A stretch of DNA of 5,857 nt from a virus (IMGVR_UViG_3300028995_000024:1-5857); one strand, 5' to 3'. Positions 1-5,857 are shown, counted from the stretch's first letter. Notes: a model not told the origin generated them from the sequence alone. Program-made: numbers and translations.

Positions 1-911
1 CGAAAAAGGCTTCGTCTAACAACAATTCCTTTAGTGCGATTTACAAGGAATGGTACGAGCACAAGAAGCAAGTCTGGTCAGTAGGATATGCGACTGAACT
101 TGCCAAAATGTTTGATGACGACATTTTGCCCATCATCGGCGGTCTTGAGATTCAGGATATTGAGCCGATGCAACTGCTGGAAGTAATCCGCAGATTTGAA
201 GATCGCGGTGCAATGGAGCGAGCAAATAAAGCCCGCAGAAGATGCGGCGAGGTTTTCCGTTACGCTATTGTCACTGGTAGGGCTAAATATAACCCGGCAC
301 CTGACCTTGCTGACGCCATGAAGGGATACCGCAAGAAGAACTTCCCGTTTTTACCTGCCGACCAGATCCCGGCATTCAACAAAGCACTTGCAACATTTTC
401 AGGAAGTATCGTATCGCTCATTGCGACCAAAGTTTTACGCTACACAGCCCTAAGAACGAAAGAGCTTCGTTCCATGCAATGGAAGAACGTCGATTTTGAA
501 AACAGGATTATCACCATCGACGCCAGTGTGATGAAGGGACGCAAAATTCATGTGGTCCCGATGTCAGACCAGGTGGTTGAACTTCTCACTACGCTAAGCT
601 CAATCACCAAACCAGTATCAGAGTTTGTTTTTGCCGGGCGCAACGATAAGAAGAAGCCAATCTGCGAGAACGCGGTATTGCTTGTGATCAAACAAATCGG
701 CTATGAGGGTCTGGAAAGCGGTCATGGATTCAGGCATGAATTCAGCACAATTATGAACGAGCACGAATGGCCTGCTGACGCTATTGAAGTGCAACTGGCA
801 CATGCCAACGGCGGATCTGTGCGTGGTATTTACAACCATGCTCAGTATCTCGATAAACGCAGAGAAATGATGCAATGGTGGGCGGACTGGCTTGAGGAGA
901 AGGTATCATAG
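1..911 (+). CDS. int: Tyrosine site-specific integrase (phage/P4-like family), 5'-partial; the N-terminus lies upstream of the window
   Basis: The reading frame is open from the window edge (first full codon at nt 3) to TAG at 909-911. Translation upstream of the ORF-track ATG at 108 stays open (...KKASSNNNSFSAIYKEWYEHKKQVWSVGYATELAK-MFDDD...), so that ATG is internal. Catalytic-domain signatures of tyrosine recombinases are present: LRTKELR (box I Arg), HGFRHEF (H-x-x-R box II) and RGIYNHAQYL (catalytic Tyr), ending in MMQWWADWL. Confidence 0.9.
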   Translation, partial: KKASSNNNSFSAIYKEWYEHKKQVWSVGYATELAKMFDDDILPIIGGLEIQDIEPMQLLEVIRRFEDRGAMERANKARRRCGEVFRYAIVTGRAKYNPAPDLADAMKGYRKKNFPFLPADQIPAFNKALATFSGSIVSLIATKVLRYTALRTKELRSMQWKNVDFENRIITIDASVMKGRKIHVVPMSDQVVELLTTLSSITKPVSEFVFAGRNDKKKPICENAVLLVIKQIGYEGLESGHGFRHEFSTIMNEHEWPADAIEVQLAHANGGSVRGIYNHAQYLDKRREMMQWWADWLEEKVS

Positions 912-920
912 GTAAACAGC

Positions 921-946
921 GCAAAGACTTGCAAACCTATGCAAAG
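921..946. repeat. Three direct hexamer repeats, GCAAAG / GCAAAC / GCAAAG, at exact 10-bp phasing just downstream of the int stop codon
   Basis: Read directly from the sequence: 921 gcaaagactt, 931 gcaaacctat, 941 gcaaagcttt. One helical turn between copies is consistent with a same-face protein-binding array. Function is unknown. Confidence 0.3.
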
Positions 947-1059
947 CTTTGTGTGTCCAGTTTTTGTCTCACGCATACAGCTTGAGATGCTAACTGGTCG
1001 ATCATCCAAGCTCTTAGTGGTAGACTCACCGCACACTTTTATCAGCGATTAATCATGAA

Positions 1060-1242
1060 ATGAAACTATCACTTGATAACCTCGTCCGCTTTGCTTCTTT
1101 AATGTGCGTAGCTGGCCTTCTAACTGGTTACCGTTCAAGATATCCATCACTACAGGTGATAGAGATACTCATGCTGGCGGTTTGGCTGCATCAGGACTAT
1201 CCTCACATCAAGAGCATCATAGAAAATAATAAAAAACAATAA
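1060..1242 (+). CDS. Hypothetical small protein (60 aa), doubtful; possibly a small membrane peptide or gene remnant upstream of the acyltransferase
   Basis: ATG-initiated ORF in the int-acyltransferase intergenic region with two short hydrophobic stretches (FASLMCVAGLLTG, VIEILMLAVWL). I recognise no family and see no convincing ribosome-binding site. It lies in the same orientation as, and 17 bp upstream of, the acyltransferase gene. Confidence 0.2.
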   Translation: MKLSLDNLVRFASLMCVAGLLTGYRSRYPSLQVIEILMLAVWLHQDYPHIKSIIENNKKQ

Positions 1243-1259
1243 TTCAATTCAGGTCAACA

Positions 1260-2327
1260 ATGAATAGCAAAATTTTATCAGTGCATTACATGAGGGCTTT
1301 GGCCTCCATCGCGGTGTTAATAGATCATTTCTCAGGTCTATTGGTTATCAATGGGAATCCAATTCCATTTTTATCGAGAGGTGGATTTGGAGTAGATCTT
1401 TTCTACATTATTAGTGGATTTATCATCTACATTTCGTCAGGAAACAAAGATAATAACAAACCTATAAAATTCATACTAAAGCGATTTTTCAGAATTTATC
1501 CATTATTCATCGTTGCATGGATAATAGGGATGTCATTTGTGTTCAAGAGTGACAGCGTATGGTCATTTTTAGAGCCGCTACTATTGGTATATCAAAATTA
1601 TAATGGAATGGCCCCTCAGTTCGGTACCCATGTTATGGGAACCCCATGGACACTGGCTTACGAACTACTCTTTTACGCAATTTTTGTTTTAGCTATTTCA
1701 ATAACTCACAAGCACCGGGCGGCATTATCAATAGCGATACTGATCCTAATGCCGATATCACTACAACTAATATTCAACGATTCATTCTCCATTCAGAGTT
1801 CTGCATTTGCCAATGCAAGTAAAGACATTCCTATGTATGGAGTAATTAGAATGGCAAGTGGAACAATAATGTTTGAGTTTGCTATAGGAATTTTATTAGG
1901 TGTTTCCTTCAAGAAAATGAAGAAGATTGATATAACACAAAGCGCATCTACGTTATTCTTCTATTCTGGGGTAATGATATCTATTGCAATACTTATTACC
2001 AACGGAAATCAGATTTCTAAATTTGGTTTGCAAGGCTATTTCATTCCGTCAATTGTTCTTTTTATATCGTTTTTCTTCAGGGATAAAACATCAAATATAA
2101 AACACAATGGATTCCTGGAGTTCTTCGGAAATATTTCATACTCGCTGTACATCACACATTTCATAATTTATGTATGGATAGTTCAGCATCTTGACAGGGT
2201 ATGGATGGAACCGGTTAGGGGGTACCCTATAGTTATTATCGGAATGGTTGCAAGCATTATATTCTCTTGGTGTTGTTATGTCTTTGTAGAGAAACCATTC
2301 ATAAAAGTCGGCAAGCGATATTTATAA
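1260..2327 (+). CDS. Acyltransferase family 3 integral membrane protein (Oac/OafA-like carbohydrate O-acyltransferase); candidate O-antigen/LPS O-acetyltransferase
   Basis: 355-aa ORF that is hydrophobic throughout, with about 10 predicted transmembrane segments. Family-typical motifs are present: N-terminal R-x-L-A-x-I-A-V-x-x-x-H (RALASIAVLIDHF), GVDLFYIISGF, KRFFRIYPLF, WTLAYELLFY and C-terminal GNISYSLYITHF. A weak AGGT ribosome-binding site lies ~5 nt before the ATG. The gene is markedly AT-rich (about 25-35% G+C in sampled lines) against ~47% in int and ~55-60% in the tail genes. Confidence 0.85.
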   Translation: MNSKILSVHYMRALASIAVLIDHFSGLLVINGNPIPFLSRGGFGVDLFYIISGFIIYISSGNKDNNKPIKFILKRFFRIYPLFIVAWIIGMSFVFKSDSVWSFLEPLLLVYQNYNGMAPQFGTHVMGTPWTLAYELLFYAIFVLAISITHKHRAALSIAILILMPISLQLIFNDSFSIQSSAFANASKDIPMYGVIRMASGTIMFEFAIGILLGVSFKKMKKIDITQSASTLFFYSGVMISIAILITNGNQISKFGLQGYFIPSIVLFISFFFRDKTSNIKHNGFLEFFGNISYSLYITHFIIYVWIVQHLDRVWMEPVRGYPIVIIGMVASIIFSWCCYVFVEKPFIKVGKRYL

Positions 2328-2347
2328 AAATAGCGTCCATAAGGACT

Positions 2348-2379
2348 AATGCCAGTCAGTTAAGCAACTGACTGGCATT
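2348..2379 (+). terminator. Perfect 14-bp inverted repeat with 4-nt loop (AATGCCAGTCAGTT-aagc-AACTGACTGGCATT) 21 bp after the acyltransferase stop; possible terminator or RNA 3' stability hairpin
   Basis: The two arms are exact reverse complements, read directly. No U-tract follows (the next bases are acggcaatcagg), so it is not a canonical intrinsic terminator. The call rests on position and stem strength only. Confidence 0.35.
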
Positions 2380-2435
2380 ACGGCAATCAGGAGGGATATC
2401 CGATTTTGACAGAGCAACCATCTTTATCAAAATAA

Positions 2436-2663
2436 AACCTTATTGCATTGGCGGATTTGAAAAAAAGAAAACTTATTAATGAAGCCAACGAGCACATGAA
2501 CAGAAGACAATGGCCTGGTAAAGCGGCCATTGGTCGTCTGAAAGGTGAGAAACTGGCGCAATATAATTTGTGGCTGGATTATCTGGACGCACTGGAACTG
2601 GTTGATACCTCCAGTGCTCCAGATATTGAATGGCCTACGCCTCCGGCAGTTCAGGCCAGATGA
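2436..2663 (+). pseudogene. Tail-fibre assembly protein (Tfa/Mu-U family), C-terminal ~75-codon fragment, 5'-truncated
   Basis: The frame opens immediately after a TAA at 2433-2435 and has no in-frame ATG; the ORF track starts it at a TTG at 2448. The translation ends ...KLAQYNLWLDYLDALELVDTSSAPDIEWPTPPAVQAR, the characteristic Tfa C-terminus (DTSxAPDxxWP). The sequence upstream is unrelated and AT-rich, so the N-terminal part of the gene is missing. Confidence 0.7.
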
Positions 2664-3228
2664 CATCCGGCGCGGTGCTGGTATCTGTTGCCGTCACCGC
2701 GTCAATGTAATCCAGCACGGCGTTAAGTCGGGTGGTCTCTGCCTGCATCAGCTTCCGCCCGGCCTGTAATTTCAGCTGAATCAGACTAATGGAAGCCATT
2801 GCTGCATCAATCAGTGACTGGCGCTGTGCTTCCGCCACTTCTACTACGGCACCGTGTTGTGCCTCAGTATCTGTCACCCATTTCTCACCATCCCATTCAT
2901 CGTATGGTGTTAACGGTGAAAGCGTGACATAATCGTCTTTGATGGCACCGATATAATCCACTGTAACAGCTGCACCATTTTCTGTTGAGTAAACAGTCTC
3001 ATTGCGATGGTCTTCTTCATGGCTCCATCCCTTACCCGTAAATACTGCCACTTTCCCCGGAATGTTTTCGCCAGGGTCAATACCAGTGGAACAGGCGGGC
3101 ATACTTACGCCAGTATTAATATATTCATCAGACCAGCCAGTATATTCATACGTTACTGCATCATAATAAAAACAACGCATATCGCCCGGCACTGTAGCCA
3201 GCCCATTTTCATCAAAAACAGGTTTCAT
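2635..3228 (-). CDS. tfa: Tail-fibre assembly protein (Tfa/Mu-U/lambda-Tfa family)
   Basis: 197-aa ORF whose C-terminus ...RLNAVLDYIDAVTATDTSTAPDVIWPELPEA matches the Tfa family signature. Its ATG (3228..3226) overlaps the stop of the upstream tail-fibre gene as TAATG, indicating translational coupling. It lies immediately 3' of a tail-fibre gene, as expected for this family. Confidence 0.85.
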   Translation of the reverse strand: MKPVFDENGLATVPGDMRCFYYDAVTYEYTGWSDEYINTGVSMPACSTGIDPGENIPGKVAVFTGKGWSHEEDHRNETVYSTENGAAVTVDYIGAIKDDYVTLSPLTPYDEWDGEKWVTDTEAQHGAVVEVAEAQRQSLIDAAMASISLIQLKLQAGRKLMQAETTRLNAVLDYIDAVTATDTSTAPDVIWPELPEA

Positions 3229-3992
3229 TATTTAGCCCTCACCAGAAAGTTAAACGCGATATTACGAGGACGTGTTTCACTTGCAGTTTTCGTTTCAATG
3301 GCACTATCAATAGAGAAATGCTGCAAATCCTGAGATGCAGCACCGTAATTGGTGTAAGAATTAACAAGTGCACCCGCTTTTATTGAGCCAGAGCTACCCA
3401 TAGCTCCCCCCATGAAATTCCCTGTTATACGCTGCTGAGCAAAGTCCTGTGCGCTTAACAACGTGCGACCACCGTCTACACCTCGCCCGTCATCCCAGAT
3501 ACGAATGAAATCACCGCGGGCTTCAGGTAATACCAGCGAAGGAAACACTTTCGCCAGCACAGGATAATCAGAAGCAGAAAATTTCGCCCCGTTGAACTTC
3601 AAAAACACCATACTGGACCAGCTGCCGATTACAGTATTTGGCATTGCAGCGGACGGCCATAAGAACGGAACGCCAATAGCTGGAGCACCTTCTCCCAAAC
3701 CAAGGTTTTCGAGAGCTGTTTTCACCGTACCATCCGATTTGATATCGCCAAACGGATTATTGCGGCTTAACAGCAGCGCACGAAGCGCGGTAAGCAGCTG
3801 GTCGTGCCGCGTCTTCTCAAGACTGGCACCGGATGCCTCCACCACGCTGCAAAGCTCCTCCTGCAACATGTCAAAGTAGTCATCATCCAGAGCGGTGGCA
3901 GGTGTGCCGGTCTGGGGGTTACCACGGGTAAAACCGTTCTTACCCGCGCCGAACTTATCCTTCTGCGCGGTTTTCGTGTCTATACGATGCAT
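3228..3992 (-). CDS. stf: Phage tail-fibre protein (short side tail fibre; conserved N-terminal anchor region plus C-terminal collar-like receptor-binding region)
   Basis: 254-aa ORF. The N-terminus [14 protein letters not shown]...[27 protein letters not shown] resembles the conserved N-terminal region of enterobacterial prophage tail fibres. The C-terminal part contains a motif like the phage tail-collar domain ([33 protein letters not shown]). It sits between a gp48-like baseplate gene and tfa. Confidence 0.8.
3690..3715. other. Candidate DNA-invertase crossover site (hix/gix/pix-like 26-bp dyad) inside the tail-fibre gene
   Basis: TTCTCCCAAACC-AA-GGTTTTCGAGAG consists of two 12-bp half-sites around a 2-bp AA core. 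The left half and the reverse complement of the right half (CTCTCGAAAACC) agree at 9 of 12 positions. Compare hixL TTCTTGAAAACC-AA-GGTTTTTGATAA and gix TTCCTGTAAACC-GA-GGTTTTGGATAA, both recalled from memory. The site encodes residues ~93-101 ([10 protein letters not shown]) of the tail fibre, which is where a constant/variable boundary would be expected. Confidence 0.5.
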
Positions 3993-3995
3993 GGA

Positions 3996-4580
3996 TTACT
4001 CCGGATATTTAAAAATTACGTAGGTATCCCACGGGCAGAGTTTGTTAAGCACGCACTCGACAACGGTGTCCCCCCAGATACGCAGCGCAGAATCACAGGG
4101 ATCGCCACATGTCATCCAGGTGGTGTTGGTGGCGGCTGGCATGTTGACCTGCCAGTAATACCGCCATTCCGGCGCATTCACCGCGTCAGTACAGACCGAT
4201 GAGCAGGTGAACGTGCTTTTGTCGTATCGCGTGATGTTGGCATCTGGTCTGCCCAGGGCAGCAAGCTGTGCAAGATAAAAATTCTCGTTGATGCTGCCCG
4301 CCAGGTTAACCTTCGCATCCAGCCGTTGCTGACGCTGACGAAGGGTCTTTGTCCCTGCGGGAATACATTCATCCGGCAGACCGCACAGACGCTCCCAGCG
4401 GTTTATCAGTTCAGTGGTGGTGCGCGGATCCAGCTCCCGCATCAGGGCATCCGCACGCTGATGAACACGGGTTAATGACGGTGCCGCACCGGCAATCGCC
4501 GGATCGCTGGCTGATCACGCCGGACCGGGGGGCAACAGTGCCGACAACAGACGGATGTAATCATCGTTTGTCACGTCCAT
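3996..4580 (-). pseudogene. Mu gp48-like / DUF2313 (YmfQ-like) baseplate-associated tail protein, interrupted by an in-frame TGA at 4517..4515
   Basis: The ORF track reports only 3996..4442 (148 aa, [26 protein letters not shown]...). The same frame continues upstream for 24 codons ([24 protein letters not shown]) to a TGA. A further 21 codons upstream (MDVTNDDYIRLLSALLPPGPA) start at an ATG at 4580..4578, which has a GGGGA ribosome-binding site ~7 nt upstream and overlaps the stop of the upstream gene. An intact gene would be 194 codons. From memory of the family, the position holding TGA normally holds Trp (TGG) in an LLPPGxAW motif. Confidence 0.7.
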
Positions 4581-5629
4581 GAAATCGTCCCCAGAACCGC
4601 CAGTTCATTTTTTGCAATGGAGATATTGTCTGCCGGTGCAAGCAACTGATGGCTGTATTCCCCGTTCGCACCGGAAATCGCCTCACTGATACGCGATACC
4701 TTCAGTTCTCCCTGCGGATAACCATCACGCAGCAGGAACGAACGCAACTCCGCGGTGATGGCAGCCCGTATTTCCGGTGTGTCCGGCGTCACGCGGATAT
4801 GAAAATCCACCGTATGTGCCACCGGCCTGAACACATACAAATCAGAGCCTGCCACCGGGGCCAGTGGCTCGATATGTTGTCTTGCCGCCGTTTCCGTTGA
4901 TTCTTCCGGAATGGGATTAATCAGGTCACTGCTGGCAATCATCACACCGACAGTTCCCGTTCCCATCCAGTGACGGTATGTCCATGCGCGGGTAATGCCG
5001 GGCACTTCTTTAGCCCAGACGACATAGTCCCCGTCAGCCCCGCCCTGCGGCGTCCAGTAATACCGCTCAATGACGCGGGCGCGCCACGTTTCCAGATCTT
5101 CAGTATCGAATCCGCCAGTCAGGGTATCTGCAACACCGGAAGACGGCAGACCATTAACCGGCGTGACCAGGATTAATGACGTACCGTCGTCAGCGTTACC
5201 GACCGCGCCTGCACTTGAGCAGGCGATCGGCACGCGCAGGACACCACCGGAGCTGGTTGCATCGGCAGTTGCCGTGTACTGAACCAGGTCATCGCGCTGA
5301 ATAACACTCCCGGCGGTCACCTTCAGGCCATCGCTGACACCTTCCCAGCGCATATACCCGCTGGCAGCCGTGGCCCCCTTGCGCGGACACCGTTTCATCG
5401 CAGCATGTCGCGCCAGCCAGGACTCATCGCACAGGTCAGGCAGCATGTTCATTGCCAGATAATCGATGTACCCGTAAACCGTATGCAGCGCCGCCGCATA
5501 CACCTTTGCCCGCACGTCTTCATCCATGCGCCGGAGCGTGTCGCTGACGTCCAGCCTGGCGAATAAATCGTTACGGAGCATACTGATATTTTCTGCCAGC
5601 GTCGGGCGCTGAAATTCACTGTCCGCCAT
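4571..5629 (-). CDS. Baseplate assembly protein J-like (Mu gp47 / P2 gpJ family)
   Basis: 352-aa ORF whose size, position (between a gp46-like and a gp48-like gene, upstream of the tail fibre) and sequence character match baseplate-J family proteins. Its start overlaps the stop of the upstream gene by 14 nt. The family assignment is by recollection of the conserved gp46-gp47-gp48-fibre gene order, not by alignment. Confidence 0.8.
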   Translation of the reverse strand: MADSEFQRPTLAENISMLRNDLFARLDVSDTLRRMDEDVRAKVYAAALHTVYGYIDYLAMNMLPDLCDESWLARHAAMKRCPRKGATAASGYMRWEGVSDGLKVTAGSVIQRDDLVQYTATADATSSGGVLRVPIACSSAGAVGNADDGTSLILVTPVNGLPSSGVADTLTGGFDTEDLETWRARVIERYYWTPQGGADGDYVVWAKEVPGITRAWTYRHWMGTGTVGVMIASSDLINPIPEESTETAARQHIEPLAPVAGSDLYVFRPVAHTVDFHIRVTPDTPEIRAAITAELRSFLLRDGYPQGELKVSRISEAISGANGEYSHQLLAPADNISIAKNELAVLGTISWT

Positions 5630-5857
5630 GCGTTATCGCACTCCACAGATCATCAAAAGAAATCATTACCGGTCCGTCACGACGCCAGAGAGTGATACTG
5701 TTACCCAGTTCATTAATCCCGGTGCGGCGGATATCCAGATCAATACGGGACACCACGCCGTCATCAATCATCCATTGCAGGCATTCGCGGATATACCCCC
5801 TTACTGTCTGCACCAGCTGATTGGTCAGTTTGCTGCGCTGAAGCAGCCACAGTCGGG
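5616..5857 (-). CDS. Mu gp46-like baseplate protein, 5'-partial; the N-terminus lies beyond the right edge of the window
   Basis: The minus-strand frame is open from the window edge (...RLWLLQRSKLTNQLVQTVRGYIRECLQWMIDDGVVSRIDL...) to TGA at 5618..5616. The ORF-track start at 5813 is an internal GTG. The RLWLL motif and the position immediately upstream of the baseplate-J-like gene fit the gp46 family. Confidence 0.6.
   Translation of the reverse strand, partial: RLWLLQRSKLTNQLVQTVRGYIRECLQWMIDDGVVSRIDLDIRRTGINELGNSITLWRRDGPVMISFDDLWSAITHGGQ

What the first reader, a model, noticed from the sequence alone, without database searches (positions are those of the whole stretch)
1060..1242. Possible small protein gene immediately upstream of the acyltransferase
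A 60-codon ATG ORF with two short hydrophobic stretches lies co-oriented with and 17 bp upstream of the acyltransferase gene. Conversion modules often include a small membrane partner such as GtrA, which is about 120 aa. This ORF is shorter and I cannot match it to any family, so it may be a remnant or a chance ORF.
Basis: inference. Interest (0 to 1): 0.2.

Follow-up and report, generated by a model that had tools for sequence, protein, structure and literature searches.

The report
Conserved small gene heading O-antigen modification cassettes
The 60-codon ORF is a real, conserved but unnamed small protein gene that sits in front of O-antigen-modifying genes (acetyltransferases or gtrABC) in many enterobacterial prophages; what it does is unknown, and the enzymes are often found without it.

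Summary
The ORF is exactly as described: ATG 1060, TAA 1240-1242, 60 codons, 17 nt before the AT3 acyltransferase (1260-2327). It lies in an E. coli CPS-53-like prophage at argW.

Its length alone is not beyond chance. Comparison shows it is a gene:
- Gap-free homologues of 52-76 aa form about 30 clusters at 50% identity.
- dN/dS is 0.10-0.49, and substitutions follow the coding pattern (third codon position most, second least).
- In about 24 distinct contexts it lies just upstream of AT3 acyltransferases of several lineages, an AT3-SGNH enzyme, or gtrA-gtrB-gtrC. These sit in prophage backbones with P22-like, T7-like or CPS-53-like gene content.

No Pfam, NCBIfam or PHROG family matches, and it is not GtrA. 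PGAP does not annotate it in the two genome records inspected.

The AlphaFold model and charge distribution suggest a two-helix hairpin with both ends cytoplasmic and a basic tail. Near-invariant residues are R10, E35, W42 and D46.

It is optional. About 9% of viral AT3 loci and 1 of 73 viral gtrA loci carry it. A 92%-identical Salmonella AT3 keeps only its last ~12 codons. Three lineages carry frameshifted copies.

Most likely it is a trans-acting, dispensable membrane accessory of O-antigen modification. That function is inferred, not shown.

The parts
1..911 (+). 3' part of the prophage integrase gene intS (CPS-53/KpLE1-like prophage at tRNA-Arg argW). It forms the left backbone flank of the cassette.
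   Evidence: Pfam Phage_integrase, E 7.6e-40. RefSeq annotates it as 'prophage integrase IntS' next to tRNA-Arg.
995..1026 (+). Putative promoter of the two-gene unit. It has an extended -10 element TGgTAGACT at 1018-1026, a poor -35, and a single GATC at 1000-1003. This is inferred, not demonstrated.
   Evidence: The block CTAACTGGTCGATCATCCAAGCTCTTrGTGGTAGACTC is shared with metagenome locus L015, which has a different upstream context. It is also shared with E. coli C4 locus L041, where it precedes a different 373-aa AT3 with no small ORF. Similar TGnTA(G/A/C)ACT elements lie upstream of homologues in L009, L017/L018 and Salmonella L003. The consensus scanner did not call it. Only one GATC is present.
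1060..1242 (+). Small protein gene of 60 codons plus stop. The conserved core is codons 1-47 (1060-1200). The variable basic tail is codons 48-60 (1201-1239).
1243..1259 (+). 17-nt spacer with a weak Shine-Dalgarno-like AGG at 1251-1253, 6 nt before the acyltransferase ATG. This is operon-type spacing.
   Evidence: Sequence. Homologous loci have spacers of mostly 4-26 nt.
1260..2327 (+). AT3-only (Acyl_transf_3) membrane acyltransferase of 355 aa, the presumed O-antigen O-acetyltransferase. It is the cargo gene of the cassette.
   Evidence: Pfam PF01757, E 3.4e-29. Annotated 'acyltransferase family protein'. Homologues are listed.
2351..2376 (+). Perfect 11-bp inverted repeat GCCAGTCAGTT-AAGC-AACTGACTGGC, 24 nt after the acyltransferase stop. 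It may mark the 3' end of the unit, but no T-run follows it.
   Evidence: Sequence. The terminator scan did not call it. Similar sequence lies beside IS4 copies in many E. coli genomes (hits H13-H30).

Best explanation
ORF 1060-1242 is a genuine protein-coding gene. It is the first cistron of a two-gene lysogenic-conversion unit (small protein plus AT3 acyltransferase), probably transcribed from a promoter just downstream of intS. Its product belongs to an unnamed family of 52-76-aa proteins. The predicted fold is a helical hairpin: helix 1 at about residues 2-22 with a small-residue face A13/S16/G19/G23, and helix 2 at about residues 29-45 with a conserved E35-M38-W42-D46 face. A basic C-terminal helix follows, and the charge distribution fits both ends in the cytoplasm.

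Shown: the gene is real, conserved and under purifying selection. It is physically linked to O-antigen-modifying genes that use unrelated chemistry: AT3-only, AT3-SGNH and GtrABC. It is also optional.

Inferred: the protein acts in trans in the inner membrane as a dispensable, non-catalytic accessory or modulator of O-antigen modification. It would work through helix-helix contacts with the enzyme or with a component shared by all these pathways, such as the Und-PP-linked O-antigen or the Wzy/Wzz/WaaL machinery. The junction between its conserved core and its variable tail also serves as a recombination point where cargo genes are swapped.
For: Gene reality:
- A 92%-identical 60-aa homologue exists.
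- A profile search found 26 clusters at 90% identity. A full HMM scan of 1.84 billion representatives gave 31 hits at E<=1e-3. Complete members are 52-76 aa; shorter and longer hits are fragments or extended gene calls.
- The alignments are gap-free in the core.
- NG86 dN/dS is 0.10-0.49 wherever it could be computed. Synonymous sites are saturated while amino-acid identity stays at 37-63% between lineages. Substitutions per codon position follow pos3 > pos1 > pos2, for example 17/4/26 for window versus L017 (chi-square p = 4e-4).

Linkage to O-antigen modification:
- In most loci the ORF lies 4-26 nt upstream of an AT3 gene, across several lineages of 350-383 aa (L009, L019, L022, L026, L030, L034, L042, L045, L202, L205). 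The gap is 72 nt in L048 and about 213 nt in L083.
- It lies upstream of an AT3-SGNH gene in L208.
- It lies upstream of gtrA-gtrB-gtrC in L017/L018, L038, L039, L156/L210-L213, L206 and L216.
- These loci sit in at least three kinds of prophage backbone, judged from neighbouring genes: CPS-53-like, P22-like with Tail_spike_N or ant/arc/mnt, and T7-like with T7-type terminase and DNA polymerase A.

Trans action rather than cis action:
- In L047 it lies downstream of an AT3-SGNH gene.
- In L083 it is about 213 nt from the AT3 gene. In L097 a weak homologue is divergent.
- The 1030-1300 RNA shows no significant structure (z = +0.86).

Membrane hairpin:
- The AlphaFold2 model has mean pLDDT 79 with helices at 2-22, 29-45 and 47-59.
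- In the 13 of 41 members the motif script could parse, mean net charge is +1.4 at the N-terminus, -0.5 in the loop and +2.6 in the C-tail.
- Near-invariant residues are V9, R10, A13, E35, M38 and W42; position 46 is Asp in 85% of members and Glu in most of the rest.
Against: - There is no direct evidence of translation or function.
- This lineage has no Shine-Dalgarno sequence before the ATG.
- PGAP does not annotate the ORF in the two records inspected, and its exact sequence is absent from a 15-billion-protein collection.
- The hydrophobic stretches are short (about 15 and 13 residues) and contain R10 and E35. A crude Hessa-scale sum does not predict spontaneous insertion, so a membrane location is not secure.
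- The gene is dispensable for keeping the enzyme. The Salmonella AT3 at 92% identity retains only about codons 49-60 behind a region with four GATC sites.
- E. coli C4 uses the same promoter block for another AT3 with no small ORF.
- Copies are frameshifted in L005-L008, L114 and L209.
- Only 7-8 of 80 viral AT3 loci and 1 of 73 viral gtrA loci carry it.
- In L204 it stands alone between an Arc-like gene and tail-fibre genes.
- Strain Yu5 has R10H at a nearly invariant position.
Confidence: 0.5

Rival explanations
1. It is an independent lysogenic-conversion or 'moron' gene. The small membrane protein has its own target, for example superinfection exclusion at DNA entry or interference with a host envelope protein. 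It simply occupies the same cargo slot near the integrase or tailspike as the O-antigen genes and is co-transcribed for convenience.
For: It is optional relative to AT3 and gtr genes. It stands alone in L204. Its position relative to the enzyme varies (L047, L083, L097). The same core occurs with enzymes of unrelated chemistry. Small prophage membrane proteins with exclusion functions are a known kind (own knowledge, not tested here).
Against: In about 24 distinct contexts only one lacks an adjacent O-antigen-modifying gene. The linkage is very tight, mostly 4-26 nt. It holds across three kinds of phage backbone, whereas an injection-blocking protein would be expected to track the phage type rather than the cargo.
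Confidence: 0.25
2. It is a cis-acting upstream ORF. What matters is that it is translated, not what it encodes. Translation would give coupling, open the acyltransferase ribosome-binding site, or bring the mRNA to the membrane for insertion of the downstream polytopic protein.
For: It is usually the first cistron with a very short spacer, and sometimes overlaps the next gene (L202, L206). The downstream ribosome-binding sites are weak and lie within or next to the ORF's end. In Salmonella an alternative 5' module replaces it: a four-GATC region resembling the gtr phase-variation switch.
Against: The peptide sequence, not just the open frame, is conserved: dN/dS 0.1-0.5 and near-invariant R10, E35, W42. 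There is no significant RNA structure. Intact copies occur downstream of the enzyme, 213 nt away, or alone.
Confidence: 0.12
3. It is a chance ORF, or a decayed remnant of a larger gene such as gtrA, with no product.
For: An ORF of this length is expected by chance in 39% of shuffles. There is no Shine-Dalgarno sequence. PGAP does not annotate it in the two records inspected. The prophage itself is decaying.
Against: There is family-wide purifying selection with codon periodicity. Gap-free homologues of the same length occur down to about 35% identity. There is no similarity to GtrA, and the ORF coexists with real gtrA genes.
Confidence: 0.03

Closest known systems
GtrA (Pfam PF04138, GtrA/DPMS transmembrane domain), the small membrane protein of phage gtrABC glucosylation modules
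   Same: Both are small hydrophobic proteins. Both are encoded at the 5' end of prophage O-antigen modification operons next to the integrase or attachment site.
   Different: GtrA is about 120 aa with four transmembrane helices. The comparison shows no homology (hhalign probability 1.5%; no Pfam hit). The small ORF precedes a genuine gtrA in several loci, so it is an additional component and not a substitute.
Iap, the small hydrophobic inhibitor of the host O-antigen alpha-polymerase in the seroconversion modules of Pseudomonas phage D3 and Salmonella phage epsilon15 (own knowledge; both phages are mentioned in PMC8787464)
   Same: It is a very small hydrophobic peptide encoded beside O-antigen-modifying genes of a temperate phage. 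It would be a precedent for a non-enzymatic peptide acting on host O-antigen machinery.
   Different: tblastn of two family members against 50,697 GenBank phage records found nothing at E<=1. The small ORF here is not associated with a phage wzy gene. Inhibition of any polymerase is untested.
Small accessory membrane proteins encoded in operons with large membrane enzymes or transporters, for example DltX with the MBOAT acyltransferase DltB, AcrZ with AcrB, and KdpF with KdpABC (own knowledge)
   Same: They are 30-60 aa, were long unannotated, are often the first gene of the operon, and act through intramembrane helix contacts. DltX in particular partners a membrane O-acyltransferase.
   Different: There is no sequence relationship (no Pfam or NCBIfam hit). 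The partner enzyme class here is AT3 or Gtr, not MBOAT. The protein is clearly optional, and no interaction has been shown.
Dam/OxyR-controlled gtr phase-variation leader region of Salmonella and P22 gtr operons (own knowledge)
   Same: It occupies the same position, between the attachment site or integrase and the modification gene. In Salmonella L003/L004 a region with four GATC sites replaces the small ORF in front of a 92%-identical acyltransferase.
   Different: The window has one GATC in the whole 912-1259 region and a coding ORF there rather than an untranslated switch.

Membership tests
GtrA family (PF04138) | Significant match to the GtrA/DPMS transmembrane-domain profile | tested here: not met
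   No Pfam hit at E<=1 for the ORF or for any of 24 family members. hhalign of family alignment A3 against one GtrA sequence gave probability 1.5%.
GtrA family (PF04138) | About 120 aa with four transmembrane helices | tested here: not met
   The ORF is 60 aa. The model has two hydrophobic helices and one amphipathic basic helix.
Unnamed small-protein family defined here (core motif VRFAAL-S-xG-x11-E-xxM-xxxW-xxxD/E) | Full-length, gap-free alignment to the family with the near-invariant residues V9, R10, A13, E35, M38, W42 and D46 | tested here: met
   The window ORF carries all of these residues. A local HMM built from family alignment A4, which includes the window ORF, scores the identical ORF in locus L001 at E 8.5e-27.
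Unnamed small-protein family defined here | Located next to a prophage O-antigen-modifying gene (AT3, AT3-SGNH or gtrABC) | tested here: met
   It lies 17 nt upstream of a PF01757 acyltransferase in a prophage at argW.
Regulatory leader peptide / attenuator upstream ORF | Alternative RNA structures or a terminator between the leader ORF and the regulated gene | tested here: not met
   The MFE of 1030-1300 is no better than shuffles (z = +0.86). No terminator-like site lies between 1242 and 1260.
Regulatory leader peptide / attenuator upstream ORF | Always immediately 5' of, and in cis with, the regulated gene | tested here: not met
   Homologues lie downstream of the enzyme gene (L047), 213 nt away (L083), alone (L204) or divergent (L097, weak).
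gtr-type Dam/OxyR phase-variation switch | Two pairs of GATC sites in the region upstream of the modification gene | tested here: not met
   There is a single GATC (1000-1003) between intS and the acyltransferase. The Salmonella relative L003 has four.
Integral inner-membrane hairpin protein (both ends cytoplasmic) | Two transmembrane helices with a positive-inside charge distribution; experimentally membrane-located | tested here: inconclusive
   The charge bias (+1.4 / -0.5 / +2.6, from the 13 of 41 members the script could parse) and the helical hairpin model fit this topology. However, the hydrophobic spans are only about 13-15 residues, and a crude insertion-energy sum is unfavourable. 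Localisation cannot be tested with these tools.
Type I toxin / holin-like small membrane toxin | Sequence match to known holin or toxin families | tested here: not met
   The PHROG scan gave only insignificant hits. The best holin hit was E 0.18, for one member. PADLOC was not scanned.

The most novel reading that the evidence does not exclude
The family is a missing common component of phage seroconversion. It would be a small inner-membrane adaptor that works with O-antigen-modifying enzymes of unrelated chemistry (AT3 acetyltransferases, AT3-SGNH enzymes and GtrABC glucosylation). It would do so by binding something they all share, such as the Und-PP-linked O-unit or the Wzy/Wzz/WaaL assembly machinery, and thereby tune how much or where the O-antigen is modified.
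Probability: 0.15. Interest if true: 0.7.

Novelty: new variant of a known kind. Interest (0 to 1): 0.42.

Why it matters
O-antigen acetylation and glucosylation by prophages change serotype, phage susceptibility and immune recognition in E. coli, Salmonella, Shigella and Enterobacter. These modules are normally described as one enzyme (Oac-type AT3) or three genes (gtrABC).

A conserved small gene that heads a subset of both module types is an overlooked component. Here it is unannotated in the genome records inspected, and elsewhere it is labelled 'hypothetical'.

If it modulates modification, it would matter for serotype prediction from genomes. It would also bear on how AT3-only enzymes work without an SGNH partner. 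Its conserved core also seems to be a crossover point where cargo genes are exchanged between phages.

It is easy to test with a stop-codon mutant, an epitope tag and an O-antigen readout. If it does nothing measurable, it is still one more example of small genes missed by annotation pipelines.

Tried and rejected
1. GtrA remnant: rejected.
2. Known family: Pfam, NCBIfam and PHROG scans of 24 members gave only insignificant single hits. PADLOC was not scanned.
3. Isolated phages: tblastn of two members against GenBank phages found nothing. The acyltransferase has only distant relatives there, at most 31% identity.
4. Fold search: Foldseek against PDB gave no match with E<3. This was expected for a 60-aa helical hairpin and is uninformative.
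5. RNA element instead of a protein: the fold is no better than shuffles.
6. Phase-variation switch in the window: only one GATC.
7. Species-representative genomes: the first scan found nothing. The second found two real loci plus a probably spurious Lokiarchaeon match.
8. E. coli phage Kapi1, also integrated at argW. Its unexplained O-antigen modification and small hypothetical genes hyp24 and hyp25 looked like a lead (PMC8787464). However, no GenBank phage record matched either of the two family members queried by tblastn at E<=1, so no link could be made.
9. Literature searches for a small ORF upstream of gtrA, oac or AT3 genes found nothing relevant.
10. Co-folding the small protein with the acyltransferase could not be done with the tools available.

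Full report
**Where the window comes from**

The window matches five complete E. coli chromosomes out of 5,426 genomes at 99-100% identity over 900-2400. In these genomes it lies in a prophage inserted beside tRNA-Arg (argW). The gene order is yfdC, tRNA-Arg, intS, an 'acyltransferase family protein', tail-fibre-assembly remnants, tail fibre and baseplate genes. This is the position of the CPS-53/KpLE1 prophage, which carries gtrABS there in K-12 (own knowledge).

In the window:
- intS ends at 911.
- The ORF in question is 1060-1242.
- The 355-aa Acyl_transf_3 gene is 1260-2327.

In the two records inspected, PGAP annotates nothing between intS and the acyltransferase.

**The observation**

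The ORF starts with ATG at 1060 and ends with TAA at 1240-1242. It has 60 codons, is on the same strand as the acyltransferase, and is separated from it by 17 nt.

It has two short hydrophobic stretches, residues 8-24 and 31-43.

Length alone proves nothing. The window holds 22 ORFs of at least 60 aa, and 39% of shuffles of the 1.5-kb cassette contain an ATG ORF that long.

No Shine-Dalgarno sequence precedes the ATG in this lineage. Several homologues do have one, for example GAGGGGTGAG in L030 and AGGGA in L009.

**The ORF travels with the acyltransferase**

Strain Yu5 differs from the window by 4-5% in intS and by 3-4% in the tail genes. Between 1017 and 2402 it differs at only 5 positions, so the cassette was shared recently.

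Within the ORF the single difference is R10H.

Homology to the more common intS-downstream sequence of other E. coli ends near 1044. A metagenomic relative (L015/L016) has an unrelated upstream context. It becomes homologous at about 990 and carries a 92%-identical ORF.

**It is a conserved protein-coding gene**

- The ORF alone retrieved one 60-aa homologue.
- Loci encoding acyltransferases 75% identical to the window's (Enterobacter, L009-L012) carry a called 60-aa ORF that ends 6 nt before the enzyme. It is 41% identical to the window ORF and aligns without internal gaps.
- A profile search then found 26 clusters at 90% identity.
- A full HMM scan of 1.84 billion representatives found 31 hits at E<=1e-3. 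Complete members are 52-76 aa.
- On 46 aligned core codons, dN/dS is 0.10-0.49 in every pair where it could be computed. Synonymous sites are saturated while proteins from different lineages stay 37-63% identical.
- Substitutions follow the coding pattern pos3 > pos1 > pos2. For example, window versus L017 gives 17/4/26, p = 4e-4.
- The 5' region plus ORF shows no RNA structure beyond shuffles (z = +0.86).

No Pfam, NCBIfam or PHROG model matches any member. Sources name the proteins 'hypothetical protein', and the window's exact sequence is absent from a 15-billion-protein collection.

**What the protein looks like**

The conserved core runs from residue 7 or so to 47. Its pattern is xxLVRFAALxSxxGLxxGxSxxxxxxxxxExxMxxxWLQMDY. 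V9, R10, A13, E35, M38 and W42 are each conserved in at least 90% of 41 members. Position 46 is Asp in 85% and Glu in most of the rest.

A variable lysine-rich tail follows.

AlphaFold2 with the family alignment gives mean pLDDT 79, with helices at 2-22, 29-45 and 47-59.

The conserved small residues A13, S16, G19 and G23 fall on one face of helix 1. E35, M38, W42 and D46 fall on one face of helix 2. This is inferred from their spacing.

Net charge is about +1.4 at the N-terminus, -0.5 in the loop and +2.6 in the tail, which fits a hairpin with both ends in the cytoplasm. These means come from the 13 of 41 members that the motif script could parse.

The hydrophobic spans are short and carry R10 and E35. 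A crude insertion-energy sum is unfavourable, so membrane integration is likely but not secure.

The Foldseek search of PDB was uninformative.

**Genomic company**

Pooling all loci gives about 24 distinct contexts.

| Arrangement | Loci |
|---|---|
| Mostly 4-26 nt upstream of AT3-only acyltransferases of several lineages (350-383 aa) | window, L015, L009, L030, L019, L022, L026, L034, L042, L045, L202, L205 |
| Upstream of an AT3-only gene with a longer gap | L048 (72 nt), L083 (about 213 nt) |
| Upstream of an AT3-SGNH enzyme | L208 |
| Downstream of an AT3-SGNH enzyme | L047 |
| Upstream of gtrA-gtrB-gtrC | L017/L018, L038, L039, L156/L210-L213, L206, L216 |
| Alone, between an Arc-like gene and tail-fibre genes | L204 |
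| Weak homologue, divergent from an AT3 gene | L097 |

L216 has the same integrase, small ORF, cargo layout as the window.

Judged from neighbouring genes, the host prophages are of at least three kinds:
- CPS-53-like.
- P22-like, with Tail_spike_N or ant/arc/mnt genes.
- T7-like, with a T7-type terminase and DNA polymerase A.

The ORF therefore tracks O-antigen-modification cargo, not one enzyme family or one phage type. It is not GtrA and coexists with it.

**It is optional**

- Among 80 viral contigs encoding relatives of the acyltransferase, 7-8 carry the ORF. Among 73 encoding GtrA, one does.
- A Salmonella P22-like prophage has a 92%-identical acyltransferase with only about the last 12 codons of the ORF left. 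Homology resumes near window 1205. The rest is replaced by a region with four GATC sites that resembles the gtr phase-variation switch.
- A 64%-identical chromosomal acyltransferase has no ORF.
- E. coli C4 uses the same promoter-like block (TGGTAGACT) directly in front of a different 373-aa AT3.
- Frameshifted copies with an intact enzyme occur in E. hormaechei L005-L008, in L114 and in L209. In L005-L008 the shift is at a poly-T tract. There a second 3' fragment of the ORF is fused to the acyltransferase, which explains its 372-aa annotation.

**Mosaic structure**

The C-terminal tails group with the downstream cargo:
- NIK..I..NK(K/E) with the 355-aa AT3.
- GSIVEF.KRNKK with the 367-aa AT3.
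- KIIISLIKK with the 374-aa AT3.

The same core can carry different tails, for example P0128, P0127 and P0138.

The Salmonella and E. hormaechei breakpoints fall at or just before the WLQMDY-coding stretch. I infer that this conserved stretch serves as a crossover point for cargo exchange.

**Mechanism**

Shown: this is a real, selected gene, tightly but not obligatorily linked to O-antigen modification genes.

Inferred: it encodes a small inner-membrane hairpin that acts in trans as a dispensable accessory or modulator. It would act either on the enzyme or on something common to acetylation and glucosylation at the periplasmic face. I put this at about 0.5.

| Rival | Probability | Main point |
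|---|---|---|
| Independent moron function, such as superinfection exclusion | about 0.25 | Helped by optionality and the L204 case. Hurt by the near-universal tight linkage across phage types. |
| Purely cis-acting upstream ORF | about 0.12 | Hurt by peptide-level conservation and by copies that are not 5'-adjacent. |
| Chance ORF or remnant | about 0.03 | Largely refuted by conservation and codon periodicity. |

**Known relatives and novelty**

I found no description of this family in Pfam, NCBIfam, PHROGs, GenBank phages or the searchable literature.

In kind it resembles small accessory membrane proteins such as DltX, AcrZ and KdpF, and small seroconversion peptides such as Iap. These comparisons rest on my own knowledge and show no sequence support.

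I rate it a new variant of a known kind and of moderate interest. It is a clean, testable, overlooked gene. However, its effect may be subtle, and its function is not established here.

Noticed in passing
window 2323-2376 (hairpin 2351-2376): A perfect 11-bp inverted repeat (GCCAGTCAGTT AAGC AACTGACTGGC) lies just after the acyltransferase. It matches, at 84-91% identity, sequence lying beside IS4-family transposase genes in dozens of E. coli chromosomes and plasmids (hits H13-H30; also a phage record). It could be an IS4 end or target, or a shared terminator.
   Followed up: no
window 2448-2663 (+) and 2635-3228 (-): A truncated tail-fibre-assembly gene (C-terminal 71 aa, Caudo_TAP E 3.7e-17) lies convergent with and overlapping a complete one (197 aa). 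This looks like the leftover of an invertible tail-fibre segment.
   Followed up: no
window 1-5857 versus L002 (E. coli Yu5): Divergence is 4-5% in intS and 3-4% in the tail genes, but only 5 differences fall between 1017 and 2402. The acyltransferase cassette was therefore exchanged or acquired more recently than its flanks.
   Followed up: partly
window ~3996-4580; L001 11097-11681: The ymfQ-like baseplate gene has an internal stop in this strain's lineage, and several neighbouring tail genes are frameshifted or truncated in strain 300444. They are intact in Yu5. The prophage is decaying while the cassette stays intact.
   Followed up: no
L003 ~3820-3940 and L004 (Salmonella enterica P22-like prophage): A 92%-identical acyltransferase is preceded by two pairs of GATC sites (GATC-N9-GATC, twice) followed by TGCTACACT. 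This resembles the Dam/OxyR gtr phase-variation region but here drives an acetyltransferase.
   Followed up: partly
L010-L012 3244-3633, L017 1014-1427, L030 4434-4820, L038 3479-3868, L039 3292-3609, L048 1416-1805, L202 2503-2892, L210 1-390 (all minus strand): A short S24-peptidase, UmuD-like gene of 105-137 aa with a GFPSPA motif and no DNA-binding domain is repeatedly found divergent from the small ORF. It is sometimes followed by umuC (L019, L206). It may share a divergent control region with the conversion operon.
   Followed up: no
L005-L008 3782-4060 (Enterobacter hormaechei): The small ORF is broken at a T6/T7 tract. A 3' fragment of a second copy is fused in frame to the acyltransferase through an A7 tract, giving the 372-aa annotation (P0003). 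Homopolymer tracts at both sites could in principle switch expression.
   Followed up: partly
L041 2501-3777 (E. coli strain C4): At the same argW/intS site another E. coli lineage carries a different 373-aa AT3 acyltransferase. It sits directly behind the same promoter-like block, with no small ORF. The slot holds at least three alternative cargoes across E. coli.
   Followed up: partly
window 1055-1063: A start-stop mini-ORF (ATG AAA TGA) overlaps the ATG of the 60-codon ORF (ATGAAATGAAA). It is conserved in L015/L016. Its significance is unknown.
   Followed up: no
P0008; L040: P0008 is a 406-aa gene call combining integrase domains with half of the acyltransferase at 98% identity. It is probably an assembly or gene-calling artefact. 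The match of the small-ORF profile in a Lokiarchaeon MAG (57% over 30 residues) is probably spurious.
   Followed up: no
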